Below the pieces are notes generated by a model. The model ran no database searches, was not told the DNA's origin, and was given only the letters and a program-made list of their open reading frames with translations. The position numbers and the translations under genes were made by a program. This document shows, in pieces, positions 1,695-36,435 of a stretch of DNA of 60,994 nt; the stretch's first letter is position 1; every line of letters starts with the position of its first letter. Source of the stretch: Thermoplasmata archaeon (GTDB lineage Archaea > Thermoplasmatota > Thermoplasmata > Lutacidiplasmatales > UBA184); NCBI GenBank assembly GCA_033854115.1, contig JAWOKS010000020.1:1-60994 (forward strand), in the 5' to 3' direction.

Positions 1695-2164
1695 AGCGGA
1701 TCGGTCTCGCCGACACCACGTTCGCGCGCGTGGACCTCGGCCGCTATGCCGCGCGCGCCCTCGCGGGCGCCGGCACCGGCTTCCGCCTCGTGCGGCGGAC
1801 GGTCCCCGGGATCAAGGACCTCCCCGTCGCCTGCCGCCAGCTGTTCGGCCAGGACGGGGTCGACCTCTGCCTCGCCCTCGGGATGCCCGGGCGCGCGGAG
1901 TACGACAAGACCTGCGCGCACGAGGCGTCGCTCGGGCTCCTGTTCACGGCCGTGCTCGAGGCGAAGCCGGTCGTCGAATGCTTCGTCTTCGAGTCCGAGG
2001 CGCGGGACGACCGCGAGCTCGAGGAGCTCGGGCGTCGCCGCGCCGAGGAGCACGCGCTCAACGCCTACGCCCTCCTCTTCCGCCCCGAGGACCTCGCCCG
2101 GCGCGCCGGCGAGGGCCTCCGCCAGGGGTTCCCCGACGCGGGCCCGGCCCGCCGGACGCGCTGA
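1691..2164 (+). CDS. ribC: Archaeal-type riboflavin synthase
   Basis: KRIGLADTTFARVDLG, RRTVPGIKDLPVAC, ALGMPG, CAHEAS, AGEGLRQG; GTGA overlap with ribL. Confidence 0.93.
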   Translation: MKRIGLADTTFARVDLGRYAARALAGAGTGFRLVRRTVPGIKDLPVACRQLFGQDGVDLCLALGMPGRAEYDKTCAHEASLGLLFTAVLEAKPVVECFVFESEARDDRELEELGRRRAEEHALNAYALLFRPEDLARRAGEGLRQGFPDAGPARRTR

Positions 2165-2192
2165 CGAGCCAGAGGTTCACGAGGTACCATCG

Positions 2193-2657
2193 ATGCCGCC
2201 ACGGACGGAAAGGACGGGAGCGCAGGGACGGACGCGGATCGCGATCGCGGTGAGCGAGTTCAACTTCGACGTGACGCTCCTCATGCTGGAGCGCGCGAAG
2301 GAGGAGATCGCGTTCCTCGGGGCGGGCCTCGGGCCGGTCGTGAAGACCCCGGGGGTCTTCGACCTCCCGCTCGCGACGAAGGCGCTCCTCGGCCGGAGCG
2401 ACGTCGATGCGGTCGTCGCGCTCGGGGCGGTCATCGAGGGCGAGACGCAGCACGACGAGGTCGTGATGCAGCAGGCCACGCGGAAGCTCGAGGACCTCGC
2501 CGTCGACACGGGAAAGCCCGTCGGCCTCGGCATCTCGGGGCCGGGCGAGACGCGGCTCCAGGCCCAGGACCGGATCGAGAACGCGGCGAACGCGGTGCGC
2601 GCGGCCGTGAAGATGGTCCAGCGGCTCCGCGAGATCGGCCGGAACGGGCCCCCCTGA
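2193..2657 (+). CDS. ribH: 6,7-dimethyl-8-ribityllumazine synthase
   Basis: IAVSEFN, PGVFDLP, LGAVIEGETQHD, KPVGLGISGPG. Confidence 0.93.
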   Translation: MPPRTERTGAQGRTRIAIAVSEFNFDVTLLMLERAKEEIAFLGAGLGPVVKTPGVFDLPLATKALLGRSDVDAVVALGAVIEGETQHDEVVMQQATRKLEDLAVDTGKPVGLGISGPGETRLQAQDRIENAANAVRAAVKMVQRLREIGRNGPP

Positions 2658-2727
2658 GCCTCTCCGTCGTGGACGACGGGCCGACCGTTCCCTCGCCCGC
2701 GCACGTCGCCCGGGCGGCCGCCGCGGC

Positions 2728-3087
2728 TTAAAGGCCGAGCCGAGGTCGCACGTAGTCGAACGCGACCTTGCCCTTCGAGGTGTGGGGGGTCACGGTCACG
2801 GAGCCCGGGGGCGGGGGATCCGCGCGGGATCGTGCCCGAAGGGCGGACTCGAGCCGGTCGCGGCCGACCTCGACCGTCACGTCGGGCGACGGCGCCGCTC
2901 CCGGCACGACGCTCGCGCGCCCGTCCCGGTCGACGACGAGGCTCGCGACGTCCTGGTCCGTCCGGAAGACCCAGGTCTGGGGAAGGTAGGCCCGCAGGAT
3001 CCCGCCGAGGAACCCTTCGAGCCGCCGGCGGACCTCCGATTCGATGTCGTGCGCGACCGAGGAGAGCAGTTCGGCGGTGGTGGCCAT
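2728..3087 (-). CDS. Hypothetical protein, possibly SCP2-like sterol-carrier fold
   Basis: GGGAGG before ATG 3087; pattern WVFRTD..ASLVVDRDG..VVPG..PDVTVEV resembles SCP2 domains. Confidence 0.55.
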   Translation of the reverse strand: MATTAELLSSVAHDIESEVRRRLEGFLGGILRAYLPQTWVFRTDQDVASLVVDRDGRASVVPGAAPSPDVTVEVGRDRLESALRARSRADPPPPGSVTVTPHTSKGKVAFDYVRPRLGL

Positions 3088-3183
3088 CGTTGCCTCCCAC
3101 GGCCCGGGGGAGATGAGGGCTTCGCGCGGGGGTCTGCGGCTCCGCCTCACGGTCTCCCCAACCGTTAAGGGTCTCCCTCCCTC

Positions 3184-3945
3184 GTGACGTTGGTGCTGCC
3201 CGCGATGGTCCGGCGCGAGCTCTACGAGGAGCTCCCCTCGACCCAGGACCGGGCGCTCGCGCTCGCCCGGGCCGGGGCGGAGGAAGGGACGCGGGTCGTG
3301 GCGCGTTCTCAGAGCCGGGGCCGCGGCCGCTCCGATCACCGCTGGAGCTCGCCCCGCGGCGGGCTCTACCTTTCGGTCGTCCTACGGCCCGCGGGGCCGC
3401 CGCTCCCCCTCTTCCCGCTCGCGTTCGGCGCGGAGGTGGCGGTCGAGCTCGCCCGGACGTATGGTGCGTCGGTCCGCCTGAAGTGGCCGAACGATCTCGT
3501 GGCGTTCGGTCCGGACCAGCGGGCGCGCAAGCTCGCCGGGATCCTGGTCGACGCCGTCGCCGGCCCGTCGGGCGCGCGCGCGGTCGTCGCCGGGATCGGG
3601 GTGAACGTTCGCCTCGCCGAAGGGGAGCTTGCGGACGAGGTGCGCGCTTCCGCCGTCTCCCTCGAGGAGCTCGTGGGCCGGCCCGTCCCGCTCGACGGGC
3701 TCGAGACGAGGATGGTCGACGCCGCGGTCCGCGCCCGGCGGGCGCTCGCCGAACCGCGCGCGGGCTCTACGGTCGTCGAGCGGTGCCGCCGTCTCCTCTT
3801 CGGGGTCGGCGAGCCGGTCCTCGTGGACGGCCGCTCGGCCGGTCGCATCGTCGGGCTGGCCGATGACGGCGCGCTCCTCGTTGGGACGAACGGCCTCGTC
3901 CACGCGGTCGTCGCGGGGGACGTGCGCGTCGGGAGCTTCGGATGA
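3184..3945 (+). CDS. birA: Biotin--protein ligase
   Basis: STQD, QSRGRGR..RWSSPRGGLYLS, LKWPND, KLAGIL, GIGVN; exact start uncertain (GTG 3184 or ATG 3205). Confidence 0.93.
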   Translation: MTLVLPAMVRRELYEELPSTQDRALALARAGAEEGTRVVARSQSRGRGRSDHRWSSPRGGLYLSVVLRPAGPPLPLFPLAFGAEVAVELARTYGASVRLKWPNDLVAFGPDQRARKLAGILVDAVAGPSGARAVVAGIGVNVRLAEGELADEVRASAVSLEELVGRPVPLDGLETRMVDAAVRARRALAEPRAGSTVVERCRRLLFGVGEPVLVDGRSAGRIVGLADDGALLVGTNGLVHAVVAGDVRVGSFG

Positions 3946-5492
3946 GCGAGCGGTTCGACCGCTGGAACGTGCTGCGCCGCCAGTCGCGGGAGGGTGGCGG
4001 CGCGGACCGCCAGAAGCGGCAGCAGGCGGCGGGGAAGCTCCTCGCGCGCGAACGCCTGGAGGCGTTCTTCGACCCCGGGACGTTCACCGAGATCGATCCG
4101 TTCGTCGTGCACCGCGTCGAGAAGTTCGGCCTCGCCGAGCGGCGGATCCCGGGCGACGGGGTCGTCACCGGCTGGGGCGAGGTCGACGGCCGGCCGGCGT
4201 GCGCGTTCGCGCAGGACGCGACGGTCTTCGGCGGCGCGCTCGGGGAGGCGCACGCCGAGAAGATCGTGAAGATCATGGACACGGCCCGCCGCGCCGGCGT
4301 CCCGATCGTCGGGCTCGACGACTCGGGCGGGGCGCGGATCCAGGAGGGGGTGATGAGCCTCGCCGGCTACGGTGACGTGTTCTACCGCAACGTTCTCCTC
4401 TCGGGCGTCGTCCCCCAGATCTCGCTCATCCTCGGGCCGTGCGCGGGCGGGGCGGTGTACTCTCCGGCGATCACCGATCTCGTTGTGATGGCGAAGCCGG
4501 CCGCCCAGATGTTCATCACCGGTCCGGACGTGGTCCGTGCGGTGACGGGCGAGGACGTCACGATGGAGGCGCTCGGAGGCGCGGACGCGCACGCCGAGCG
4601 CTCCGGGGTCTCCCACTTCACGGTCGGGAGCGACCGGGCGGCGATCGACCTCGCCCGGCGCCTGCTCGGCTACCTTCCCCTCAACAACCTCGAGGAGCCT
4701 CCGCTCGCCGAGCCGCTCGACCCGCCGGACGGCGCGGCCGCCGAGCTCGTCCGGATCGTGCCGGACTCGTCCGAGGTGCCGTACGACGTCCTCGGGGTCA
4801 TCGAGCGCCTGGTCGACCGGGGCTCGTTCCTCGAGGTGCACGCGGCGTGGGCGACGAACCTCCGGGTCGGGTTCGCGCGCCTCGAGGGCCGGCCGGTCGG
4901 GGTCGTCGCGAACAATCCGGCGGTCGCCGCCGGGACGCTCGACATCAACGCCTCCGTAAAGGGCGCCCGCTTCGTCCGCCTCTGCGACGCGTTCAACCTG
5001 CCGCTCGTCACGCTCGTCGACGTTCCCGGCTTCCTCCCCGGGACGGCGCAGGAGCACGGCGGGATCATCCGCCACGGGGCGAAGCTCCTCTACGCCTACG
5101 CGGAGGCGACGGTGCCGCTGCTCACGGTGATCCTCCGCAAGGCCTACGGGGGGGCCTACGACGTCATGTGCTCGAAGCACCTCGGCGGCGACCTGAACCT
5201 CGCCTGGCCCACCGCCGAGATCGCGGTCATGGGCTCGGAGGGGGCGGTCCGGATCCTCTACCGCCGCGAGCTCGAGGCCGCGCCGGCCGAGGGTCGGGAG
5301 GCGCTCCGCACCCGCCTCGCCTCGGAGTACGCGCGCGAGTTCCTGAACCCGTACCTCGCGGCCGAGCGCGGCTACATCGACGACGTGATCGATCCCGCGG
5401 AGACGCGGACGCGGCTCGTCGCCGGGCTCCGTCTGTTCACGGGCAAGCGCGACGACCGCCCCGCCCGGAAGCACGGGAACCTCCCGCTGTAG
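3942..5492 (+). CDS. Acyl-CoA carboxyltransferase (PccB/MmdA/transcarboxylase 12S family)
   Basis: GDGVVTGWG, DSGGARIQEG, GPCAGGAVYSPA, DVPGFLPG, RKAYGGAY, RKHGNLPL. Confidence 0.95.
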   Translation: MSERFDRWNVLRRQSREGGGADRQKRQQAAGKLLARERLEAFFDPGTFTEIDPFVVHRVEKFGLAERRIPGDGVVTGWGEVDGRPACAFAQDATVFGGALGEAHAEKIVKIMDTARRAGVPIVGLDDSGGARIQEGVMSLAGYGDVFYRNVLLSGVVPQISLILGPCAGGAVYSPAITDLVVMAKPAAQMFITGPDVVRAVTGEDVTMEALGGADAHAERSGVSHFTVGSDRAAIDLARRLLGYLPLNNLEEPPLAEPLDPPDGAAAELVRIVPDSSEVPYDVLGVIERLVDRGSFLEVHAAWATNLRVGFARLEGRPVGVVANNPAVAAGTLDINASVKGARFVRLCDAFNLPLVTLVDVPGFLPGTAQEHGGIIRHGAKLLYAYAEATVPLLTVILRKAYGGAYDVMCSKHLGGDLNLAWPTAEIAVMGSEGAVRILYRRELEAAPAEGREALRTRLASEYAREFLNPYLAAERGYIDDVIDPAETRTRLVAGLRLFTGKRDDRPARKHGNLPL

Positions 5493-5511
5493 GGGCGCAC
5501 GAGGGGCTCCG

Positions 5512-7038
5512 ATGGTCGGGCTCACCGAGACGGTCCTGCGCGACGGCCACCAGTCGCTCATCGCGACCCGGATGCGCACGCGCGACATGCTGCCGGCCGC
5601 CGAGCGCCTCGACGCGGTCGGCTACCGCTCGCTCGAGGTCTGGGGGGGAGCCACGTTCGACGTCTGCCTGCGCTTCCTCCGCGAGGACCCCTGGGAACGG
5701 CTCCGCGCGCTGAAGCGCGCGATGCCGAACACCCCGCTCCAGATGCTCCTGCGCGGGCAGAACCTGGTCGGCTACCGTCACTACCCGGACGACGTCGTCC
5801 GGGCGTTCGTCGCCGAGGCGGCCCGCCAGGGGATCACGATCTTCCGCGTCTTCGACGCGCTCAACGACCCGCGCAACATGGAGGTCGCGCTCGCCGCGGT
5901 GAAGAAGGCCGGGGCGCGGGCTCAGGGGACGATCTGCTACACGAGCTCGCCCGTCCACACGCTCGAAGCGTTCGTCGGCCTCGGCCGCCGCCTCGCCGAG
6001 CTCGGCGCGGACGAGCTCTGCGTGAAGGACATGGGCGGGTTCCTGCCTCCCAAGGAGGCGGCGGCGCTCGTCGGCGCGTTGCGCCGCGAGGTCGGCCTTC
6101 CCGTCGTCGTGCACACGCATTCGGCGAGCGGGCTCTCGACGCTCACGTGCCTCGCTGCGGTCGACGCCGGTGCGGAGGCGGTCGACGGGGCGCTGAGCCC
6201 CTTCGCAGGCGGGGCGAGCCAGCCGCCGACCGAGACGCTCGTCGCGGCCCTTCGCGGGGGCCCCGCCGACCCCCGGCTCGATCTCGGCGCCCTCGCCGAG
6301 CTCTCCGCCTACTTCCGGACCGTGCTCGAGCACTACCGGCCGCTCCTCGACATCCGCTCGCTGCAGACCGACCCGGGGATCCTCACGCACCAGATCCCGG
6401 GCGGGATGCTCTCGAACCTCCTCTCCCAGTTGCGCGAACAGGAGGCGCTCGGTCGCCTCGCCGAGGTCCTCGCCGAGGTCCCCCGCGTGCGGGCGGACCT
6501 CGGCTACCCGCCGCTCGTGACCCCGACGAGCCAGATCGTGGGGATCCAAGCGGTGATCAACGTGCTCTCGGGCCGGCGCTACGGCACGATCACCCAGGAG
6601 GTCCGCGAGTACGTCCGCGGGCTCTACGGCGCGCCTCCCGGCGGGCTCGAGCCCGAGCTCGTCGCGCGGGTGACGCGCGAGGCCCCGGCGATCACGGGAC
6701 GGCCGGCCGACCTCCTCGCCCCCGAGCTCGAGGCGAAGCTCGCCGAGGTCCGGGCGCTCGTGCCGGCGGCCGACACCGCGGAAGCGCTCTCCTACGCGCT
6801 CTTCCCGGCCGTCTACCGGGCCTTCCGCGCGAGCGTTGACCAGGGTCTGACCCCCGACGTCCTCACCTCCGCCGCGCTCGGCGTCCTCGGCGCCTTGCGG
6901 GCCGAACGCCCCCCGCCCCCGGCCCGGCCGGCGGAGCACGTGCGGAGCGCGCCGAGCCTCTGGGCCCACGAGGGCCGGGTCCGCCTGCAAACCCAGGGGG
7001 GTGGGGTCCGTGCGGCTCACGGTCGAGCTCGACGGTAG
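5512..7038 (+). CDS. Pyruvate/oxaloacetate carboxyltransferase (PycB/OadA/transcarboxylase 5S family), no fused biotinyl domain
   Basis: LRDGHQSLIATRM, WGGATFD, QMLLRGQNLVGY, FRVFDALND, KDMGG, HTH, PGGMLSN, PLVTPTSQIVG. Confidence 0.93.
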   Translation: MVGLTETVLRDGHQSLIATRMRTRDMLPAAERLDAVGYRSLEVWGGATFDVCLRFLREDPWERLRALKRAMPNTPLQMLLRGQNLVGYRHYPDDVVRAFVAEAARQGITIFRVFDALNDPRNMEVALAAVKKAGARAQGTICYTSSPVHTLEAFVGLGRRLAELGADELCVKDMGGFLPPKEAAALVGALRREVGLPVVVHTHSASGLSTLTCLAAVDAGAEAVDGALSPFAGGASQPPTETLVAALRGGPADPRLDLGALAELSAYFRTVLEHYRPLLDIRSLQTDPGILTHQIPGGMLSNLLSQLREQEALGRLAEVLAEVPRVRADLGYPPLVTPTSQIVGIQAVINVLSGRRYGTITQEVREYVRGLYGAPPGGLEPELVARVTREAPAITGRPADLLAPELEAKLAEVRALVPAADTAEALSYALFPAVYRAFRASVDQGLTPDVLTSAALGVLGALRAERPPPPARPAEHVRSAPSLWAHEGRVRLQTQGGGVRAAHGRARR

Positions 7039-7573
7039 GCCGGCCGAGGTCGAGGTCGCGGGCGACCTCGCGAGCGTACGCCTCGGTGGCCGTTCCTACC
7101 CGGTCCGCGTCGTCGAGCGCCGCCCGACGCGGCTCGTCCTCGAGATCGCGGGCGAGACCGTCACGGTCGACGGCTGGCCCGAGGGGCTCACGGCCCCGCC
7201 CGGCCCGCTCGACGTGAACGGCGAGCGGCACCGGGTCGTCGTGACCGTCGTCGAGCCCGGGGTCCTCCACCCCGCCTCGCCCTCCATCGCCGGCGGCCCC
7301 GCGCCGGCCGAGGCCGCGGCCCCTCCGGTCCCGGCCGCGCCGGTGCGGCCCGGGGCCGTTGCCATCCTCCCGCCGATGCCCGGTCGCGTGGTCGCGGTCA
7401 AGGTCCGGGAGGGGGACCGGGTGCACCAGGGCGACCTCCTGGTCGTCCTCGAGGCGATGAAGATGCGGAACGAGGTGACGGCGCCGATCGACGGGGTCGT
7501 CCACGACGTGCGCGTGCGCGAGGGATCGAACGTCCGGGCCCGCGAGGCGATGCTCACCGTCGCGCCCGCGTAG
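7001..7573 (+). CDS. Biotin carboxyl carrier protein
   Basis: PMPGRVVAVKV..GDRV..GD.LVVLEAMKM.NEV; Pro/Ala-rich linker. Confidence 0.93.
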   Translation: MGSVRLTVELDGRPAEVEVAGDLASVRLGGRSYPVRVVERRPTRLVLEIAGETVTVDGWPEGLTAPPGPLDVNGERHRVVVTVVEPGVLHPASPSIAGGPAPAEAAAPPVPAAPVRPGAVAILPPMPGRVVAVKVREGDRVHQGDLLVVLEAMKMRNEVTAPIDGVVHDVRVREGSNVRAREAMLTVAPA

Positions 7574-7582
7574 GCGCCCTCC

Positions 7583-7933
7583 CTAGGCAAGGCGCACGGC
7601 CGGGTGGCCGCACGCCGAGCAGCGGACCGCGTCCGGCGGGAGGTCGGCGGCGCAGTAGATGCAGAAACCGATCGCGGGCTCGCCCGACCCCGGCTTTGCC
7701 GCCGGGCCCGCCGGGGCTCCGGGAGCGAGCGGGGTCGCGGACCCGCTCGCGGGGGTCGGCACCCCCACCGGCGGGGAGCCCGCGGCGAGCCAGGCGAGCG
7801 ACGTGCCGACGACGATCCATCCGAGGAAGCCGTAGAGCGCGTAGGTCGAGTACTGGGGGAGCTCGAACCAGACGAACAGCGCCGCCGCGGCGACCGCGAC
7901 GTTGACGAGCGAGAGCGCGAGGCGGCGTTGCAT
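7583..7933 (-). CDS. Small membrane protein with C-terminal zinc ribbon
   Basis: GGAGGG RBS; two hydrophobic segments, Pro-rich linker, CIYC...CSACG. Confidence 0.7.
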   Translation of the reverse strand: MQRRLALSLVNVAVAAAALFVWFELPQYSTYALYGFLGWIVVGTSLAWLAAGSPPVGVPTPASGSATPLAPGAPAGPAAKPGSGEPAIGFCIYCAADLPPDAVRCSACGHPAVRLA

Positions 7934-8048
7934 GCCCCCCTCCCACCCGTACGAGGGGCCGAACCCTACTTCTCGGTTGTTCCCGGCCGTGCCGGACGCT
8001 GGCCCCGGCGCCCGTTGCCTTTTTAGTCCGGAACGCTCGCGACCGCCC

Positions 8049-9500
8049 GTGACGCGGATCCCGGCGCTCGTCGCGCTCGACGAGTTCACCTACGAGATCC
8101 CTCGGGACGAGGTGCCGGGAATGCATGTTCCCGGCCGCCTGTTCTCGAACCGGGCGCTGCTCGAGGGGGTCCAGGGGGACCCGTCGCTCGTCCAGCTCGC
8201 GAACGTGGCGACGCTCCCCGGGATCGAGCGCCACGCGCTCGCGATGCCGGACATCCACTTCGGCTACGGCTTCCCGGTCGGAGGGGTCGCGGCGTTCGAC
8301 CTCCGGGAGGGGGTCGTCTCGCCCGGGGGGATCGGCTACGACATCAACTGCGGGGTCCGCCTGCTCCGCACCCGGCTCACGGTCGAGGAGGTCCGGCCCC
8401 GTCTCGCGGAGCTGACCGAGCGGCTCTACCGCGAGGTCCCGAGCGGGGTCGGCTCCCGGGGCGGCCGGGCCCTCTCCGCCTCCGAGGTCGACGAGGTGCT
8501 CGCCGGGGGGGCCGCGTGGGCGGTGAAGGAGGGTCACGGCCGCCCCGAGGACCTCGGGTTCCAGGAGGAGGGGGGACGGCTCGCGGGGGCCGCGCCGTCG
8601 GAGGTCTCCGACATGGCCCGGAAGCGCGGGCTGCGCCAGCTCGGCACCCTCGGCTCGGGGAACCACTTCCTCGAGATCCAGGCGGTCGACGAGCTCTTCT
8701 ATCCCGAGTTCGCGCGCGTGCTCGGCCTCGCGCGCGACGGGGTCGTCGTCATGCTCCACACCGGCTCGCGCGGGCTCGGCCACCAGGTCGCGACCGACTT
8801 CATCCGCCGGATGGACGAGCGCCTCCTCGCGGAAGGAACGACGCTCGTCGACCGCCAGCTCTCGTGCGCGCCCGTCGCCTCCGACGACGGCCAGCGGTAC
8901 CTCGGCGCGATGGCGGCGGCCGCGAACTTCGCCTGGGCGAACCGCCAGCTGATCACGGAGGGGGTGCGGCGGGGGTTCGCGGGCGTCTTCGGGCGCCCGG
9001 CGGAGGAGCTCGGGATCGAGGTCGTCTACGACATCGCGCACAACATCGCGAAGGTCGAGACCCACCGGACCGATGGCGCCGCGAAGCCGGTGCTCGTCCA
9101 CCGCAAGGGCGCGACGCGCGCGTTCCCCGAGGGCCGGGAGGAGGTGCCCGCCCCCTACCGCTCGTTCGGCCAGCCGGTCCTCATCCCCGGGGACATGGGG
9201 ACCGCGAGCTACGTCCTCGCCGGCCTTCCCGGGGCGATGGACCGCTCGTTCGGCTCGTCCTGCCACGGGGCGGGCCGCCGCCTCAGCCGGCACGCGGCCG
9301 TCCGCGCGTTCCGGTTCGACGAGGTCACGCGCCGCCTCGCCGAGAAGGGGATCGTCGTCCGGTCGGCCTCCCGCGAGGGGGTCACCGAGGAGGCGCCGGG
9401 CGCCTACAAGGACGTGGAAGAGGTCGTGCGGGTCGCGGAGGGGGCCGGCCTCACGCGGCGGGTCGCCCGCCTCGTCCCGCTCGGCGTCGTGAAGGGCTAG
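8049..9500 (+). CDS. rtcB: tRNA-splicing ligase RtcB
   Basis: MPDIHFGYGFPVGGV, GYDINCG, GTLGSGNHFLE, HTGSRG, HRKGAT, PGDMG, HGAGR, EEAPGAYK. Confidence 0.96.
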   Translation: MTRIPALVALDEFTYEIPRDEVPGMHVPGRLFSNRALLEGVQGDPSLVQLANVATLPGIERHALAMPDIHFGYGFPVGGVAAFDLREGVVSPGGIGYDINCGVRLLRTRLTVEEVRPRLAELTERLYREVPSGVGSRGGRALSASEVDEVLAGGAAWAVKEGHGRPEDLGFQEEGGRLAGAAPSEVSDMARKRGLRQLGTLGSGNHFLEIQAVDELFYPEFARVLGLARDGVVVMLHTGSRGLGHQVATDFIRRMDERLLAEGTTLVDRQLSCAPVASDDGQRYLGAMAAAANFAWANRQLITEGVRRGFAGVFGRPAEELGIEVVYDIAHNIAKVETHRTDGAAKPVLVHRKGATRAFPEGREEVPAPYRSFGQPVLIPGDMGTASYVLAGLPGAMDRSFGSSCHGAGRRLSRHAAVRAFRFDEVTRRLAEKGIVVRSASREGVTEEAPGAYKDVEEVVRVAEGAGLTRRVARLVPLGVVKG

Positions 9501-9537
9501 CCCGCGCGGGGTCCCCCGGTCCCGGGCGTCCCCCCGG

Positions 9538-32633: not shown

Positions 32634-34328
32634 GTGCCGCGCTCCAACCTTTCCGCGGGCCGCGTGCTCGAGCTCCTCGGGCGCCCGGTGAGCCCGGAGG
32701 AGCTCGAGGCGCTCCTCTTCTCGTCGAAGGCCGAGCTCGAGGGCCGGACCGACGAGGCGCTCGACCTCTCGGTGACGCCGGACCGTCTCGACCTCCTCGA
32801 CGAGGGCGGCCTCGCGCTCGACCTCGCCGGCGCGCTCGGCGCGGCGCGTGGTGGCGCGCGTCTCCGGCGCGGCCGCCCGTCGGCCCGGGGGCTGAGCTTC
32901 CTGGTCGATGCCTCGGTGGAGCCGCTCCGGCCGTCGATCGCCGGGGTCGTGGTCCGCGCTCCGGCGGGCCGCCCGCTCGACGAGGGCCTGCTCACCGAGG
33001 TCGTCCGGTTCCAGGAGGTCCTCCACGCGAGCGTGGGCCGCGACCGGCGGGCGATGAGTCTCGGGATCTATCCCGCCGCCCGCCTGCGGGGTCCGATCCG
33101 GTACGCGCTCGAGCCGCTCGACTCGGTGAGCTTCGTCCCCCTCGAGGGGGACGCCGAGGTCCCGGCGGCCCGGTTCTTCACCGAGCACCCGCTCGCGGCC
33201 CGCTACGGCGCCCTCGGCCGCACCGGGGACCGCTGCCTCACGCTGCGCGACGCGAGGGGCGAGATCCTCAGCCTCCCGCCGGTCCTCAACAGCCGGACAT
33301 CCGGCCAGGCGACGCCGGGGAACCGGGTCCTGCTCCTCGAGTCGACCGGGACGAGGCCCCGAGCCGTCCGGGAAGGTCTCGGGCTCTTGCTCGTCGCCTT
33401 CGCCGCCCGAGGTTGGTCGGTCCGACCCGTCCCGCGCGTGGGTCCCGGCGACCGGGCCGATGACGGGACGTCGGTCCTCGCGGACCGACCGGTCGACCTC
33501 TCCGCCTCGACGCTGCGGGGGATCACCGGCGAGGACCTCCGGTCCGCGGAGGTGGTCGACCGCCTGGCCCGTGCGCGCCTCTCGGCCCGTCGCGTGCGGG
33601 GAGGGTGGCGGGTCGGGGCCCCTCCCTGGCGGCCGGACCTCCTCGCGGCCGTGGACGTCGCGGAGGAGGTGGTGCTGCACGGGGGCCTTCGCGTCGACGC
33701 CGGGGTGGTGCCAGCGAGCCCGACCCATGGACGTCGAAGGGCCGAGGCGATCTTCCGGCGGCGCGTGAGCGAGCTCCTCCTCGGGCTCGGGTTCGCCGAG
33801 CCGCACACGCCGTTCCTCGTGAGCGAGGCGACCGTCGAACGCCTGGGCGGGCCACCCCCGATCAAGCTCGCGAACCCGGTCTCCCGTGAGTTCGCCTTCC
33901 TGCGCGACCGGCTGCTCCCGTCGCATCTCGACGTGCTCGCGAAGAACACGCGGCACGGCTACCCCCAGCGGTTCGCCGAGGTCGCTCCTGTGGTCGTCCG
34001 CGCCCCGATCGCGGAGGCCGGGGGCGAGACGCGGTACCGGGCCGGCGGCCTCATCGCGGGCGAGGGGGCGGGGTTCGCCGACGCGGCGGCGACGGTCGAC
34101 TACCTCTTGCGGACCCTCGACGTCGGCTCCGTCCGCGAGCCGGCGGAACTTCCCGGCACGATCCCGGGCCGCGCGGCGCGCTACCGGGTCGCCGGCGAGA
34201 CGGTGGCGGAGGTCGGCGAGCTCCACCCGCGTCTCCTCGCGGAGCTCGGCGTGCCGGTGCCGGCAGCCTGGGCCGAGGTCGACCTCACGGCCCTCTGGCC
34301 CCTCGCCGCCCGCCGCGACACGCGTTAA
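32634..34328 (+). CDS. pheT: Phenylalanine--tRNA ligase beta subunit
   Basis: TPDRLDLL, LSLPPVLNS, PPWRPDLL..VDVAEEV, NPVS, GELHP; follows pheS. Confidence 0.92.
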   Translation: MPRSNLSAGRVLELLGRPVSPEELEALLFSSKAELEGRTDEALDLSVTPDRLDLLDEGGLALDLAGALGAARGGARLRRGRPSARGLSFLVDASVEPLRPSIAGVVVRAPAGRPLDEGLLTEVVRFQEVLHASVGRDRRAMSLGIYPAARLRGPIRYALEPLDSVSFVPLEGDAEVPAARFFTEHPLAARYGALGRTGDRCLTLRDARGEILSLPPVLNSRTSGQATPGNRVLLLESTGTRPRAVREGLGLLLVAFAARGWSVRPVPRVGPGDRADDGTSVLADRPVDLSASTLRGITGEDLRSAEVVDRLARARLSARRVRGGWRVGAPPWRPDLLAAVDVAEEVVLHGGLRVDAGVVPASPTHGRRRAEAIFRRRVSELLLGLGFAEPHTPFLVSEATVERLGGPPPIKLANPVSREFAFLRDRLLPSHLDVLAKNTRHGYPQRFAEVAPVVVRAPIAEAGGETRYRAGGLIAGEGAGFADAAATVDYLLRTLDVGSVREPAELPGTIPGRAARYRVAGETVAEVGELHPRLLAELGVPVPAAWAEVDLTALWPLAARRDTR

Positions 34329-34351
34329 TATCGCCCCCCGGTAGACGGCCG

Positions 34352-36028
34352 ATGGTCCGGTCCCGACGTCACGTGTCGCCCGACGCCGCCCGTCGTGCGT
34401 GGGAGGAGGGGGCGCACCGCGCGATCGGCGAGAAGGCCCACGGGGGCCGCATCCCGCTCCTCGTGGGTCCGCCGGACGACCCGACGGCGACGTACCTCGA
34501 GGGGCTCGGGTTTCCGGGCGAGGCGCCGTTCACCCGGGGGATCCACCCGACGATGTACCGCGGGCGCCTCTGGACGCTCCGCCAGTACTCCGGCTTCGGC
34601 AGCGCGGAAGCGACGAACCGGCGCTTCCACTTCCTCCTGAAGGGAGGGCAGACGGGCCTCTCGGTCGCCTTCGACCTCCCGACGCAGAACGGCTACGACC
34701 CGGACCACCCGAAGGCGCACGGCGAGGTCGGACGGTGCGGGGTCCCGATCTCGTCGCTCGGGGACCTGCGGACCCTCGTCCGGGGCCTCCCGCTCGGCGA
34801 CGTGACGGTCTCGATGACGATCAACGCGACGGCGCCGATCCTCGTCCCGCTCCTCGTCGCGGCCGCGGAGGAGCAGGGCGTCCCTCGCGCCCGGCTCGCC
34901 GGGACGGTCCAGAACGACATCCTGAAGGAGTACGTCGCCCGCGGGACGTACATCTACCCGCCCGCCGCGTCGATGCGGCTCGCGGTCGACCTCATCGAGT
35001 TCGCGACGCGCGAGATGCCCCAGTGGAACACGATCTCCGTTTCGGGCTACCACCTCCGGGAGGCCGGGGCGACCGCCGCGCAGGAGGTCGCCTTCACGAT
35101 CGCGAACGCCATCGCCTACGTCCGCGCGGTCCAGGCCCGGGGCCTCGACGTCGACGAGTTCCTGCCCCGGATCTCGTTCTTCTTCTCGGCCGACATCCGC
35201 CTCCTCGAGGAGATCGCGAAGTACCGCGCCGCCCGGCGCCTCTGGGCGCGTGTCGTCCGCACGACGTTCGGGAGCCGCCGCGCGCGCTCGCAGCAGCTGC
35301 GCTTCCACGTCCAGACCGCCGGCTCGAGCCTCACCGCCCAGCAGCCCGAGCTCAACGTCGTCCGGACGACCCTCGAGGCGCTCGCCGCCGTCCTCGGCGG
35401 GGGCCAGTCGCTCCACACGAACGCGCTCGACGAGGCGATCGGCCTCCCGACGGAGGCGTCCGCCCGGCTCGCGCTCCGGACCCAGCAGATCCTCGCCGAG
35501 GAGTCGGGCGTGCCGAACACGGTCGACCCGCTCGGCGGCGCCTACGCGATCGAGCACCTCACCGACCAGCTCGAGCGCGAGGCCGACGAGTACCTCGCGC
35601 GCATCGAGGAGATGGGCGGGGCGCTCGCGGCGGTCGACCGCGGGTTCTTCGCCTCCGAGATCGCCCGGGAGGCCTACCGCGTCGCCCGGGCCCGGGACGC
35701 CGGCGCCGAGATCGTCGTCGGGGTCAACGCCTTCGGCGAGGGGAACCCCGATTTCGCGCTGTTCGGGCCGCACGGGCGCGGGGTCCGCGCCGAGCGGATC
35801 CCGAAGGGCGAGGAGGGCCGCCAGATCGCGCGCGTCCGCCGCTGGCGCCGCGCGCGGGACGCCTCCCAGGTCCGCGACGCGCTCGAGCGGCTCCGTGCGG
35901 CGAGCCGGGGCACGGAGAACGTCGTGCCGTCGGTCCTGGCGGCCGTGAAGGCCGGCGCGACCCTCGGGGAGGTCGCCGACGTCTGGCGCGAGCTCTTCGG
36001 CGAGCAACCGCCTTCGCGGGCGTTCTAG
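34352..36028 (+). CDS. Methylmalonyl-CoA mutase, large (substrate-binding) subunit
   Basis: PFTRG, WTLRQYSGF, GLSVAFDLPT, TVQNDILKEY, SGYHLREAG, SLHTN; no B12-binding DxHxxG domain. Confidence 0.93.
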   Translation: MVRSRRHVSPDAARRAWEEGAHRAIGEKAHGGRIPLLVGPPDDPTATYLEGLGFPGEAPFTRGIHPTMYRGRLWTLRQYSGFGSAEATNRRFHFLLKGGQTGLSVAFDLPTQNGYDPDHPKAHGEVGRCGVPISSLGDLRTLVRGLPLGDVTVSMTINATAPILVPLLVAAAEEQGVPRARLAGTVQNDILKEYVARGTYIYPPAASMRLAVDLIEFATREMPQWNTISVSGYHLREAGATAAQEVAFTIANAIAYVRAVQARGLDVDEFLPRISFFFSADIRLLEEIAKYRAARRLWARVVRTTFGSRRARSQQLRFHVQTAGSSLTAQQPELNVVRTTLEALAAVLGGGQSLHTNALDEAIGLPTEASARLALRTQQILAEESGVPNTVDPLGGAYAIEHLTDQLEREADEYLARIEEMGGALAAVDRGFFASEIAREAYRVARARDAGAEIVVGVNAFGEGNPDFALFGPHGRGVRAERIPKGEEGRQIARVRRWRRARDASQVRDALERLRAASRGTENVVPSVLAAVKAGATLGEVADVWRELFGEQPPSRAF

Positions 36029-36039
36029 GAGGGACGGCG

Positions 36040-36435
36040 ACGGAGCTCGATCACCTCGGTCTCGCGGTCGCCGACCTCCGCGGGGCGCTCGAGCGCTGGC
36101 GCCCGCTCGTCGGGGAGCCGGACGGCCCCCCCGAGGAGGTCCCGGGCCAGGGCGTCCGCGTTGCGTTCCTGAGCGCGGGTGGTGTGCACCTCGAGCTCCT
36201 CGAGCCGACGTCGCCCGAGTCGGCGGTCGGCCGGTTCCTCGAGCGGCGGGGCGAGGGGCTCCACCATCTCGCGTTCCGCGTCCCGAGCGTCGACCGGGCC
36301 CTCGCGGAACTCCTGGCGCGCGGCGAGCGGGTCGTCGACCGCGCGGCCCGGCCGGGGGCGCGGGGCCGGAAGGTCGGCTTCGCCCACCCGTCCGCGTTCG
36401 GCGGGGTCCTCGTCGAGTTCGTGGAGGGCCCGTGA
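36040..36435 (+). CDS. mce: Methylmalonyl-CoA epimerase (VOC family); start codon non-canonical or uncertain
   Basis: LDHLGLAV, LELLEP, FLERRGEGLHHLAF, FAHPSAFGGVLVEF; 3' end of ORF 34399..36435. Confidence 0.85.
   Translation, partial: TELDHLGLAVADLRGALERWRPLVGEPDGPPEEVPGQGVRVAFLSAGGVHLELLEPTSPESAVGRFLERRGEGLHHLAFRVPSVDRALAELLARGERVVDRAARPGARGRKVGFAHPSAFGGVLVEFVEGP

What the first reader, a model, noticed from the sequence alone, without database searches (positions are those of the whole stretch)
3184..7573. Candidate archaeal methylmalonyl-CoA:pyruvate transcarboxylase operon (12S-5S-1.3S plus BirA)
Seen: four coupled genes encoding a biotin ligase, an acyl-CoA carboxyltransferase, a pyruvate/oxaloacetate carboxyltransferase with no biotinyl domain, and a free biotin carrier. 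The block is bounded by opposite-strand genes. It has no ATP-grasp biotin carboxylase (needed by Pcc/Pyc) and no membrane beta subunit (needed by Na+-pumping Mmd/Oad). Known: two different carboxyltransferases sharing one biotin carrier is the design of Propionibacterium transcarboxylase (EC 2.1.3.1). Inference: ATP-independent carboxyl transfer between oxaloacetate/pyruvate and propionyl-/methylmalonyl-CoA. I know of no characterised archaeal example.
Basis: partly seen in the sequence, partly recalled or inferred. Interest (0 to 1): 0.82.

Follow-up and report, generated by a model that had tools for sequence, protein, structure and literature searches.

The report
Archaeal ATP-free transcarboxylase operon
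A soil archaeon of the class Thermoplasmata, and most of its family, carry one biotin enzyme made of two different carboxyl-transferases and one biotin carrier with no ATP-using or sodium-pumping partner, so it most likely passes CO2 between oxaloacetate and propionyl-CoA without ATP, although databases and a published genome study label its parts as ATP-dependent carboxylases.

Summary
Window 3184-7573 (+) encodes four coupled genes:
- BirA
- a PccB/MmdA/12S-family acyl-CoA carboxyltransferase (CT)
- a PycB/OadA/5S-family pyruvate/oxaloacetate carboxyltransferase with no biotinyl domain
- a free biotin carrier

Small conserved opposite-strand genes bound the block.

The genome is 96.8% complete. 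It has no biotin carboxylase (BC) and no OadB, and this is its only CT, 5S-like gene and biotin carrier.

Survey results:
- **Order (121 genomes):** the 5S-like gene is in 106, BC in 3, OadB in 0.
- **The 3 BC genomes:** they lack the 5S-like gene and hold a foreign CT-BC-BCCP cassette at the same locus.
- **Class, outside this family:** 49 of 52 genomes with a 5S-like gene have BC or OadB. The other 3 have the same CT-5S-carrier cluster.

Methylmalonyl-CoA mutase and epimerase lie in the same window.

Best reading is a methylmalonyl-CoA:pyruvate transcarboxylase (about 0.75). It is assembled from PycB-like and PccB-like parts and is not orthologous to the Propionibacterium subunits.

No archaeal enzyme of this kind has been assayed in the literature I could search. 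Asgard genomes were read this way in 2020. The scan noted the same operon before in another Thermoplasmata genome (e1-1491201).

The parts
3184..3945 (+). birA: class I biotin-protein ligase, 253 aa, no HTH, GRGR motif at residue 46
   Evidence: PF03099 58.9 bits and TIGR00121 115.7 bits, over its 83.1 cut-off. Motif position. Single copy in the genome. Upstream of the CT in 29 of 31 related loci; the other 2 contigs end first.
3942..5492 (+). Acyl-CoA carboxyltransferase of the PccB/MmdA/12S family, 516 aa. The predicted methylmalonyl-CoA/propionyl-CoA site.
   Evidence: PF01039 648 bits. PDB matches: PccB 1vrg 655 bits, 1xnv 645, 12S 1on3 585. GGAYDVM at residues 403-409, with Asp407 in the column of S. 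coelicolor PccB Asp422. The only Carboxyl_trans gene in the genome.
5512..7038 (+). 5S-like pyruvate/oxaloacetate carboxyltransferase, 508 aa, no biotinyl domain. Metal-site residues D11, K172, H201, H203.
   Evidence: PF00682 + PF02436, no PF00364. PDB matches: PycB 5ks8 510 bits, OadA 2nx9 487, 5S 1rqb 430, with the ligand columns identical in all three alignments. The only PYC_OADA gene in the genome. The 120 closest database homologues are 483-513 aa and none has PF00364.
6847..7035 (+). Conserved C-terminal tail of the 5S-like subunit. It has an amphipathic helix (LTxDVLTxAALGVxGALR), a Pro/Ala linker and a WAHEGR...RRW motif. Proposed docking element.
   Evidence: Alignment of 30 clade members: G, L, A, L, R of the helix and W, A, G, R of the end motif are kept in at least 90%. 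No Pfam family matched in 10 of 10 tails scanned, apart from one chance-level hit. The function is inferred.
7001..7573 (+). Biotin carboxyl carrier, 190 aa. N-terminal all-beta domain (1 to about 87), disordered Pro/Ala linker (88-106), biotinyl domain with Lys154 in EAMKM (codon 7460-7462).
   Evidence: PF00364 63.8 bits. AlphaFold model at mean pLDDT 86.1, with blocks 1-80 at 83-96. Biotinyl domain matches P. horikoshii BCCP 2d5d at Z 14.0 and 1.3S 1dd2 at Z 12.1. The N-domain is conserved in 22 aligned relatives, mean column identity 65%. The other two Biotin_lipoyl hits in the genome lie in 2-oxoacid dehydrogenase gene clusters. One is an E2 by Pfam. The other lies just after an E1-beta gene and its own ORF was not scanned.
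33890..36025 (+). Methylmalonyl-CoA mutase large subunit (pathway partner, same window)
   Evidence: PF01642 668 bits. A second copy lies on contig C2. B12-binding subunits are present elsewhere.
36046..36426 (+). Methylmalonyl-CoA epimerase candidate (pathway partner)
   Evidence: TIGR03081 112.8 bits, just under its 114.95 cut-off. PF13669 Glyoxalase_4 73.7 bits.
2728..3087 (-). Upstream boundary: conserved 119-aa gene of unknown family, divergent from birA
   Evidence: GC3 0.89. tblastn hits in 23 related loci and in L096 and L097. No Pfam hit.
7583..7933 (-). Downstream boundary: small membrane protein with a C-terminal zinc ribbon, convergent with the carrier gene. The start is uncertain.
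   Evidence: GC3 0.90. Conserved in 23 related loci directly after the carrier gene. Zn_Ribbon_1 at 22.5 bits, below its cut-off, and no OAD_gamma hit.

Best explanation
The four genes encode a biotin-dependent methylmalonyl-CoA:pyruvate transcarboxylase (the reaction of EC 2.1.3.1) together with its own biotin ligase.

Proposed mechanism:
1. BirA biotinylates Lys154 of the carrier.
2. The 5S-like subunit takes the carboxyl group of oxaloacetate onto biotin and releases pyruvate.
3. The swinging biotinyl domain carries the carboxyl group to the PccB-like subunit.
4. That subunit carboxylates propionyl-CoA to (S)-methylmalonyl-CoA.

No ATP, bicarbonate or ion gradient is involved, and the reaction is reversible.

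In this organism it most likely feeds propionyl-CoA into the methylmalonyl-CoA pathway. Likely sources of propionyl-CoA are propionate, odd-chain fatty acids, and valine or isoleucine. The route then runs through epimerase, B12 mutase, succinyl-CoA and the TCA cycle back to oxaloacetate. Net, propionyl-CoA becomes pyruvate and the ATP that propionyl-CoA carboxylase would cost is saved. This is the scheme drawn for syntrophic propionate oxidisers.

Shown by sequence and comparison: the domain make-up, the intact catalytic residues, the absence of BC and OadB, and the synteny.

Inferred: the reaction, its direction, and that the three proteins form one complex. For the complex I suspect the conserved N-terminal beta domain of the carrier and the conserved tail of the 5S-like subunit are involved.
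For: 1. Domain set and coupling at the stated coordinates.

2. Catalytic competence.
- 5S-like D11, K172, H201, H203 and the TPTSQIVG segment are identical in the alignments to PycB, OadA and 5S.
- The CT aligns end to end with PccB, including GGAYDVM.
- The carrier has EAMKM.

3. It is the only biotin enzyme in a 96.8%-complete genome.
- One CT, one PYC_OADA gene, one biotin carrier.
- 0 Biotin_carb_C and 0 OAD_beta hits.
- The other ATP-grasp hits are CarB, RimK/LysX, SucC and acetyl-CoA synthetase.
- tblastn with a relative's BC finds only CarB at 25% identity. A Pasteurella OadB finds nothing.

4. Order survey of 121 genomes: PYC_OADA in 106, BC in 3, OAD_beta in 0. Among the 71 high-quality genomes the figures are 61, 3 and 0.

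5. A natural swap.
- The 3 BC-bearing genomes (G033, G037, G009) are among the 15 without PYC_OADA.
- They carry CT-BC-BCCP, inverted, between birA and the RtcB side of the same locus.
- Their CT is 56% identical to the window's and forms a separate clade with Dehalococcoidia CTs.
- An ATP-dependent carboxylase cassette therefore replaces the CT-5S-carrier cassette. This points to the same job, acyl-CoA carboxylation.

6. Class survey of 201 genomes shows the searches do see BC and OadB in related archaea.
- 49 of 52 PYC_OADA-positive genomes outside the family have BC or OadB. In the family, 0 of 23 do.
- The 3 exceptions (G147, G222, G282) each have CT, then an unfused 5S-like gene, then a separate carrier.

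7. Synteny in 31 related Thermoplasmata loci.
- CT lies 13-30 nt upstream in 30.
- A separate carrier lies downstream in 30.
- birA is present in 29.
- All misses are contig ends.

8. Pathway partners.
- Mutase and epimerase are in the window.
- There is a second mutase, B12-binding subunits, SucC, and at least one 2-oxoacid dehydrogenase E2.
Against: - No activity data exist for this or any archaeal homologue in the literature I searched.
- By score, both transferases sit closer to carboxylase or decarboxylase subunits (PycB, OadA, PccB) than to the Propionibacterium 5S and 12S. Sequence alone therefore does not single out transcarboxylase.
- The genome is a 73-contig MAG, so absence is statistical and not proven. 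It rests on 118 of 121 related genomes agreeing.
- Six family genomes in the order sample have neither PYC_OADA nor BC. The enzyme is therefore dispensable or was missed there.
- In 3 of 30 related loci (L014, L018, L019) the carrier frame is broken or only partly matched.
- Substrate identity and direction are inferred from family and context only.
- The epimerase hit is 2 bits under its curated cut-off.
Confidence: 0.75

Rival explanations
1. These are parts of ordinary ATP-dependent carboxylases. That is propionyl-CoA carboxylase beta (the published reading, 'pccB') and pyruvate carboxylase subunit B (the database name), whose biotin carboxylase partner is encoded elsewhere or was not assembled.
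For: NCBI and JGI name the close homologues 'pyruvate carboxylase subunit B'. [quoted passage not shown] Both proteins score best against carboxylase subunits.
Against: - No Biotin_carb_C in the own genome at 96.8% completeness. tblastn finds only CarB.
- BC is in 3 of 121 order genomes and in 0 of the 106 that hold the 5S-like gene.
- The same search finds BC in 64 of 201 class genomes and in 13 of 14 control genomes.
- PycB proteins carry a C-terminal biotinyl domain. This clade does not: 30 of 30 complete ORFs are 500-514 aa.
Confidence: 0.05
2. It is a biotin-dependent decarboxylase, of oxaloacetate and/or methylmalonyl-CoA. Either it uses an unrecognised membrane partner to pump ions, or it is a soluble enzyme that simply releases CO2.
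For: - The CT's best NCBIfam model is mmdA. The carrier's best is MmdC. The 5S-like protein scores 640 bits on oadA.
- A small membrane protein gene is conserved just downstream on the other strand.
- Other Thermoplasmata families do have OadA with OadB.
Against: - OAD_beta is in 0 of 121 order genomes, yet in 25 of 201 class genomes and in 2 control genomes.
- Every curated decarboxylase model is below its cut-off.
- The downstream protein matches a zinc-ribbon model weakly and not OAD_gamma.
- Replacement by a carboxylase cassette argues for carboxylation of the acyl-CoA, not its decarboxylation.
- Two different transferases on one carrier have no role in a single-substrate decarboxylase.
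Confidence: 0.07
3. It is a transcarboxylase with other substrates. Examples are acetyl-CoA/malonyl-CoA in place of propionyl-CoA/methylmalonyl-CoA, or 2-oxoglutarate/oxalosuccinate in place of pyruvate/oxaloacetate.
For: PccB-family transferases often accept acetyl-CoA. This is general knowledge and was not tested here. PycB-like proteins also serve in 2-oxoglutarate carboxylase (recalled). Sequence cannot fix specificity.
Against: - Asp407 sits in the column of S. coelicolor PccB Asp422. I recall that residue as favouring propionyl-CoA. The role of the residue is recalled, not tested.
- Mutase and epimerase lie in the same window.
- Archaea have no known need for malonyl-CoA in lipid synthesis (established knowledge).
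- The best matches of the 5S-like subunit are pyruvate/oxaloacetate enzymes.
Confidence: 0.1
4. The genes are neighbours but do not form one enzyme. Alternatively the cluster is a decaying relic.
For: Six family genomes lack it. Three loci have a broken carrier frame.
Against: - Mean column identity is 85% in the CT across 27 genomes, with invariant catalytic motifs.
- Gene order and overlaps are conserved in 30 of 31 loci.
- Codon-position GC is typical of coding sequence.
- Identical pieces turn up in soil RNA libraries. That is a weak point, since DNA carry-over is not excluded.
Confidence: 0.03

Closest known systems
Methylmalonyl-CoA carboxytransferase (transcarboxylase, EC 2.1.3.1) of Propionibacterium freudenreichii subsp. 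shermanii: 12S, 5S and 1.3S subunits (PDB 1on3, 1rqb, 1dcz/1dd2)
   Same: - Three separate proteins of the same three families: a PF01039 CT, a PF00682+PF02436 transferase without a biotinyl domain, and a small free biotin carrier.
- No BC and no membrane subunit.
- The 5S-like subunit is about the same length: 508 aa, against 505 recalled for 5S.
- The metal-site residues align.
   Different: - Not orthologous. The 5S-like protein scores 430 bits on 5S, 510 on PycB and 487 on OadA. It reaches 500 of the 827 bits the 5S equivalog needs. The CT scores 585 on 12S against 655 on PccB.
- The carrier is 190 aa with a folded N-terminal beta domain of about 87 residues. I recall 1.3S as having only a short N-terminal peptide there.
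- The 5S-like subunit has a conserved tail with no family match.
- The operon includes birA.
Transcarboxylase genes of the methylmalonyl-CoA (mmc) cluster of syntrophic propionate oxidisers such as Pelotomaculum thermopropionicum (review PMC8892533, passages seen)
   Same: Same proposed role and direction: propionyl-CoA is carboxylated at the expense of oxaloacetate inside a methylmalonyl-CoA pathway. There too the subunits are named after decarboxylase parts (mmcH alpha, mmcJ gamma) plus a '5S subunit' (mmcL).
   Different: They are bacterial. I did not compare sequences with them. The bacterial CT-adjacent 5S-like genes I did sample carry a fused biotinyl domain and form a clade apart from the archaeal one. 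These were 7 Chloroflexota loci (Dehalococcoidia and Chloroflexia) and 1 Desulfobacterales locus.
Transcarboxylase inferred from Asgard archaeal genomes (Imachi et al. 2020, PMC7015854, passages seen)
   Same: An archaeal, genome-based inference of a methylmalonyl-CoA transcarboxylase with its associated biotin ligase and carrier. It has not been assayed.
   Different: A different phylum, and propionate fermentation was proposed there. I made no sequence comparison with Asgard proteins.
Two-subunit pyruvate carboxylase PycA/PycB (Methylobacillus flagellatus 5ks8; the archaeal type in methanogens and other Thermoplasmata)
   Same: The closest solved relative of the 5S-like subunit, at 510 bits over residues 2-449. 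Carrier residues 60-189 align to the C-terminal part of PycB, residues 489-616. In the tree, the clade sits in an unresolved group with PycB and OadA proteins.
   Different: There is no PycA (BC) in the genome or in 118 of 121 order genomes. The biotinyl part is a separate gene in another frame. The partner is an acyl-CoA transferase.

Membership tests
Transcarboxylase, EC 2.1.3.1 (as an enzyme type) | An acyl-CoA carboxyltransferase of the PccB/12S family with an intact active site | tested here: met
   PF01039 648 bits. Full-length alignment to PccB and 12S, with the GGAY and GPCAGG motifs kept.
Transcarboxylase, EC 2.1.3.1 (as an enzyme type) | A pyruvate/oxaloacetate carboxyltransferase (TIM barrel + PYC_OADA domain) with metal ligands and without its own biotinyl domain | tested here: met
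   PF00682 + PF02436, no PF00364. D11, K172, H201 and H203 are conserved. 30 of 30 complete clade ORFs are 500-514 aa.
Transcarboxylase, EC 2.1.3.1 (as an enzyme type) | One biotin carrier shared by both transferases | tested here: inconclusive
   Only one biotin carrier gene exists in the genome, so sharing is forced if both transferases work. Physical sharing cannot be tested here.
Transcarboxylase, EC 2.1.3.1 (as an enzyme type) | No biotin carboxylase and no ion-pumping beta subunit | tested here: met
   Own genome: 0 and 0. Order: BC in 3 of 121, OadB in 0 of 121.
Transcarboxylase, EC 2.1.3.1 (as an enzyme type) | ATP-independent carboxyl transfer between oxaloacetate and propionyl-CoA | not testable with these tools
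   Needs an enzyme assay.
Propionibacterium-type 5S subunit (NCBIfam NF008984 equivalog) | Score at or above the curated cut-off of 827 bits | tested here: not met
   500.5 bits. The protein works like a 5S subunit but is not a member of that equivalog.
Two-subunit pyruvate carboxylase (PycA/PycB), the public annotation | A PycA biotin carboxylase in the genome, and a C-terminal biotinyl domain on PycB | tested here: not met
Propionyl-CoA carboxylase (PccA/PccB), the published reading for the order | A PccA subunit with BC, BT and BCCP domains | tested here: not met
   No BC. Only the 3 swapped genomes have a CT-BC-BCCP cassette.
Na+-translocating oxaloacetate or methylmalonyl-CoA decarboxylase | Membrane beta subunit (PF03977) | tested here: not met
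   0 of 121 in the order. The search finds it in 25 of 201 class genomes.
BT (BC-CT interaction) domain of PCC/MCC/ACC, as the identity of the carrier's N-terminal domain | A beta barrel around a helix, placed just before the BCCP domain | tested here: inconclusive
   - PF21139 BT_MCC_alpha: E 0.022, 15.6 bits against a cut-off of 31.
- Yeast ACC BT-BCCP 5csa: Z 4.0, rmsd 3.0, 75 aligned, at rank 42 among generic barrels for the N-domain alone.
- The same entry is the only one in the top 50 that spans both domains of the full model: Z 12.0, rmsd 11.6, 145 aligned.

The most novel reading that the evidence does not exclude
A whole family of soil Thermoplasmata has given up ATP-dependent carboxylation. 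Its single biotin enzyme arose when a PycB-type gene split inside its BC-CT-interaction-like region. On this reading the helix stayed on the tail of the 5S-like subunit, and the beta barrel became the N-terminal domain of the free carrier. The two halves would re-associate to tether the carrier, and the extreme tail motif would dock the assembly onto a PccB-like hexamer. This would be a way of building a transcarboxylase unlike the Propionibacterium one. The genome has no PEP carboxylase, PEP carboxykinase or pyruvate carboxylase. The enzyme would then also be, beside malic enzyme, the link between C4 and C3 metabolism.
Probability: 0.25. Interest if true: 0.65.

Novelty: new variant of a known kind. 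Interest (0 to 1): 0.5.

Why it matters
**Annotation.** It corrects the annotation of hundreds of database proteins and a published metabolic reconstruction. The proteins are now called pyruvate carboxylase subunit B. The reconstruction read the partner gene as propionyl-CoA carboxylase.

These abundant soil archaea would oxidise propionyl-CoA without paying ATP for carboxylation. That changes the energy budget assumed for them.

**A test case.** The locus offers a natural experiment. Sister genomes carry either the ATP-free cassette or an ATP-dependent one at the same site.

**A first assay.** The operon is compact and self-contained, with its biotin ligase included, so it suits the first biochemical test of an archaeal transcarboxylase. 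It could also serve as an ATP-saving carboxylation module.

Tried and rejected
1. **Complex prediction.** Chains were the CT, the carrier N-domain and the 5S tail, with the tail as partner.
- Verdict: 'no answer'. The scores were 0.77-0.79.
- The control with the CT replaced scored 0.77. The two controls with the partner replaced scored 0.00.
- This is neither support for nor evidence against binding.

2. **5S tail as a fused acyl-CoA carboxylase epsilon subunit (a recalled resemblance).**
- Pfam at E up to 10 gave no such hit in 10 of 10 tails. There was one chance-level hit to an unrelated family.
- Idea dropped.

3. **Fold of the carrier N-domain.**
- Predicted alone, the model was weak (pLDDT 64.5).
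- The best structural matches are generic 8-stranded barrels at Z 6.0 or less. No fold family can be named.

4. **Expression.**
- Four soil metatranscriptome runs from one study hold short contigs identical to parts of the CT, the 5S-like gene, the 5S/carrier junction (6969-7152) and the carrier.
- The data are contigs and DNA carry-over is not excluded. birA is barely covered.
- No claim of transcription or co-transcription is made.

5. **Shadow ORFs.** The long minus-strand ORFs 2177-3100 and 7554-9293 are GC shadows.

6. **Downstream membrane protein as an OadG-like subunit.** No OAD_gamma hit.

7. **Bathyarchaeota locus L052.** It has an unfused 5S-like gene and a separate carrier. A run of N lies just upstream, so I could not tell whether a CT is there.

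8. **5S tree.** The careful search did not finish in time. The quick tree is reported.

9. **Biotin supply.** BioY was found in 0 of 11 relatives. Biotin synthesis genes were not searched.

Full report
**What is there**

The window is 70-76% GC. It is contig C20 of a 1.75-Mb, 73-contig genome rated 96.8% complete and 1.4% contaminated. The record titles of the closest loci name uncultured soil Thermoplasmata archaea, one of them labelled Candidatus Lutacidiplasmatales.

Four + strand ORFs sit at the stated coordinates:
- 3184-3945: biotin-protein ligase (PF03099, TIGR00121).
- 3942-5492: 516-aa carboxyltransferase (PF01039, 648 bits).
- 5512-7038: 508-aa protein with HMGL-like and PYC_OADA domains and no biotinyl domain.
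- 7001-7573: 190-aa biotin carrier (PF00364, EAMKM at 151-155).

The genes are coupled. birA and CT overlap by 4 nt, CT and 5S are 19 nt apart, and 5S and the carrier overlap by 38 nt in different frames.

In 74% GC DNA the long opposite-strand ORFs are shadows. Two small minus-strand genes do flank the block, at 2728-3087 and at 7583 to about 7933. Each is conserved in 23 related loci. RtcB follows on the + strand.

**Is a partner missing?**

In the own genome:
- The HMM searches found no Biotin_carb_C and no OAD_beta.
- They found one Carboxyl_trans and one PYC_OADA gene.
- CPSase_L_D2 hit only CarB plus three weak matches. Pfam shows these to be RimK/LysX, SucC and ADP-forming acetyl-CoA synthetase.
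- The two other Biotin_lipoyl hits lie in 2-oxoacid dehydrogenase gene clusters. One is an E2 by Pfam. The other sits just after an E1-beta gene, and I did not scan its own ORF.
- tblastn with a relative's BC hit only CarB at 25% identity. A Pasteurella OadB hit nothing.

In 121 genomes of the order:
- PYC_OADA is in 106, BC in 3 and OAD_beta in 0.
- Among the 71 high-quality genomes the figures are 61, 3 and 0.
- These tallies include three genomes flagged unpublished (G016, G030, G043). They count as PYC_OADA-positive and BC- and OadB-negative. Leaving them out gives 103, 3 and 0 of 118. No other claim rests on them.

**A natural swap**

The three BC-bearing genomes (G033, G037, G009) are among the 15 without PYC_OADA. 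I fetched their BC contigs.
- In G033 and G037, ribB, ribH, the small divergent ORF and birA are in the usual order. After birA comes an inverted CT-BC-BCCP cassette.
- In G009, birA is followed by the same inverted cassette. ribB, ribH and the small ORF were not matched on the piece fetched.
- One of the three BCs was confirmed by Pfam.
- Their CT is 56% identical to the window's. It forms its own clade (support 99), next to Dehalococcoidia CTs (support 92). It is not inside the family's CT clade.

That tree has 31 rows. I thinned the family to 11 loci picked by hand plus the window.

So an imported ATP-dependent acyl-CoA carboxylase cassette stands exactly where the CT-5S-carrier cassette otherwise stands. 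I read this as functional equivalence: both carboxylate the same acyl-CoA, one with ATP and bicarbonate, the other with oxaloacetate.

**Control across the class**

In 201 Thermoplasmata genomes, PYC_OADA is in 75, BC in 64 and OAD_beta in 25. Cross-tabulated:
- All 23 PYC_OADA-positive genomes of the window's family have neither BC nor OadB.
- Of the 52 positives in other families, 34 have BC, 25 have OadB and 49 have one or both.
- The 3 exceptions are G147, G222 and G282.

I fetched the loci of the three exceptions. Each has a CT (56-59% identical), directly followed by an unfused 5S-like gene (49-54%) and a separate carrier.

The rule held in every sampled genome. A 5S-like gene without BC or OadB in the genome sits next to a CT and a free carrier.

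**Synteny**

Of the 80 loci returned, 31 are Thermoplasmata at 68-83% identity.
- CT lies 13-30 nt upstream in 30. L041 starts inside the 5S gene.
- A separate carrier gene follows in 30. L063 ends first.
- birA is present in 29. L037 and L041 start too late.
- The 30 complete 5S-like ORFs are 500-514 aa.
- In L014, L018 and L019 the carrier frame is broken or only partly matched. I did not resolve whether this is assembly error.

The 120 best database homologues are 76-100% identical and 483-513 aa, none has PF00364, and where named they are called 'pyruvate carboxylase subunit B'.

**Are the parts competent, and what are they like?**

The 5S-like protein:
- It aligns over residues 2-449 with M. 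flagellatus PycB (510 bits), V. cholerae OadA (487) and P. shermanii 5S (430).
- D11, K172, H201, H203 and the TPTSQIVG segment are identical in all three alignments.
- That these are the metal ligands and the carbamylated lysine of 5S is recalled, not shown by a call.
- The NCBIfam 5S equivalog is not reached: 500 bits against a cut-off of 827.

The CT:
- It aligns end to end with PccB of T. maritima (655 bits) and S. coelicolor (645), and with 12S (585).
- Asp407 falls in the column of S. coelicolor Asp422. I recall that residue as favouring propionyl-CoA.

The tree of 5S, PycB and OadA proteins:
- It has 79 rows labelled by gene context. It is the quick tree. L041 and L063 were dropped.
- The archaeal unfused clade is monophyletic (support 100) on a long stem.
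- It sits in an unresolved group with PycB and OadA.
- It is apart from the bacterial clade whose members sit next to a CT and carry a fused biotinyl domain. That clade comprises 7 Chloroflexota loci (Dehalococcoidia and Chloroflexia) and 1 Desulfobacterales locus.

So the enzyme works like the Propionibacterium transcarboxylase but was assembled independently from PycB-like and PccB-like stock.

**Assembly (inferred)**

The carrier model is confident, with mean pLDDT 86.1. It shows an all-beta N-terminal domain (residues 1 to about 87), a disordered linker (88-106) and a biotinyl domain. The biotinyl domain matches P. horikoshii BCCP at Z 14.0 and the 1.3S carrier at Z 12.1.

The N-domain is conserved and has no clear family:
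- It gives a sub-threshold hit to the MCC BT domain, E 0.022.
- It gives only generic barrel matches at Z 6.0 or less.
- Yeast ACC BT-BCCP is the one entry that spans both domains of the full model.

The 5S-like subunit ends in a conserved helix, a Pro/Ala linker and a WAHEGR...RRW motif, with no Pfam match. Carrier residues 60-189 align with PycB residues 489-616.

I therefore suspect a fission of a PycB-type gene, with the two conserved pieces acting as tethers. This is a hypothesis only.

**Role**

- Methylmalonyl-CoA mutase (33890-36025) and an epimerase candidate (36046-36426, 2 bits under its cut-off) lie in the window.
- Elsewhere the genome has a second mutase, B12-binding subunits, SucC and at least one 2-oxoacid dehydrogenase E2.
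- It has a malic enzyme.
- It has no PEP carboxykinase of either type and no PEP carboxylase of either type.

The most economical reading is the methylmalonyl-CoA pathway as drawn for syntrophic propionate oxidisers (PMC8892533, passages seen). Propionyl-CoA is carboxylated at the expense of oxaloacetate, which the TCA cycle regenerates. The reverse direction, propionate fermentation, is not excluded.

**Literature**

- PMC9287336 (passages seen) lists pccB as a marker. It calls the propionate-to-succinate pathway complete in Lutacidiplasmatales. The passages found hold no mention of a biotin carboxylase or of the 5S-like partner.
- PMC3199775 (passages seen) sets transcarboxylases aside.
- Five searches found no paper that assays an archaeal transcarboxylase or describes one in Thermoplasmata. 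The library lacks most subscription journals. The searches were:
  - transcarboxylase + archaea + methylmalonyl-CoA: 27 papers.
  - methylmalonyl-CoA carboxyltransferase + Thermoplasmata: 1 paper.
  - transcarboxylase + Thermoplasmat*: 2 papers.
  - transcarboxylase + archaeal + propionate: 11 papers.
  - 'carboxyltransferase 5S' + archaea: 0 papers.

**Earlier scan notes**

The scan noted the same four-gene operon before in another Thermoplasmata genome (e1-1491201), and transcarboxylase gene sets in several Asgard genomes. I reached the reading before seeing these notes. One of them (e1-5560431) prompted the look at the 5S tail.

**Verdict**

- It is a new variant of a known kind of enzyme. 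It is widespread in one archaeal family and present in at least two others. It is mislabelled in databases and has not been tested at the bench.
- Interest is moderate (0.5). The chemistry is known and was already inferred for Asgard archaea. The comparative evidence here is unusually clean, and the build differs from the textbook enzyme.

Noticed in passing
whole genome G000: No PEP carboxykinase (ATP or GTP type), no PEP carboxylase (bacterial or archaeal type) and no pyruvate carboxylase were found. Only a malic enzyme and the transcarboxylase link C4 and C3 compounds. How oxaloacetate is replenished is open.
   Followed up: partly
G000 and 10 relatives: No BioY biotin transporter in 0 of 11 genomes, although the operon needs biotin. 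Biotin synthesis genes were not searched.
   Followed up: no
L070, L072, L074, L080, L081, L083, L086, L090: Seven Chloroflexota genomes (Dehalococcoidia and Chloroflexia) and one Desulfobacterales genome have a PccB-like CT next to a 5S-like gene with a fused biotinyl domain. No BC or OadB lies within about 8 kb. These are candidate bacterial transcarboxylases and form their own clade.
   Followed up: partly
L052 (Candidatus Bathyarchaeota chromosome), about 8001-10083: An unfused 510-aa 5S-like gene with a separate carrier downstream. A run of N at 7689-7788 hides what lies just upstream, and only the last 37 residues of a CT matched.
   Followed up: partly
L053, L055, L057, L058, L060, L067, L071, L076-L079, L088: Clostridia (Ruminococcus, Acutalibacteraceae, Oscillospiraceae) have carrier then unfused 463-468-aa 5S-like genes. 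Four loci (L076, L077, L079, L088) also show a distant CT (33-35% identical) upstream. Whether these are decarboxylases or transcarboxylases was not examined.
   Followed up: no
window 2728-3087 (-): A conserved 119-aa protein of no known family, divergent from birA. It is kept in 23 related loci and also in 2 of the 3 BC-cassette loci.
   Followed up: partly
window 7583-7933 (-): A conserved small membrane protein with a C-terminal CxxC...CxxC zinc ribbon. It ends 10 nt after the carrier gene on the other strand.
   Followed up: partly
window 1746-2657 (+): The ribH open frame is 303 aa, but the lumazine synthase domain starts at residue 163 and the N-terminal part is Arg/Pro/Ser-rich. The true start is probably near 2230.
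   Followed up: no
window 9538-13377 (-): A 1279-aa protein with a pro-kumamolisin activation domain and four PKD domains. It is probably a secreted sedolisin-type protease.
   Followed up: no
L014, L018, L019 carrier genes: The carrier reading frame is broken or only partly matched in these three related assemblies. This could be assembly error or real decay, and it was not resolved.
   Followed up: no
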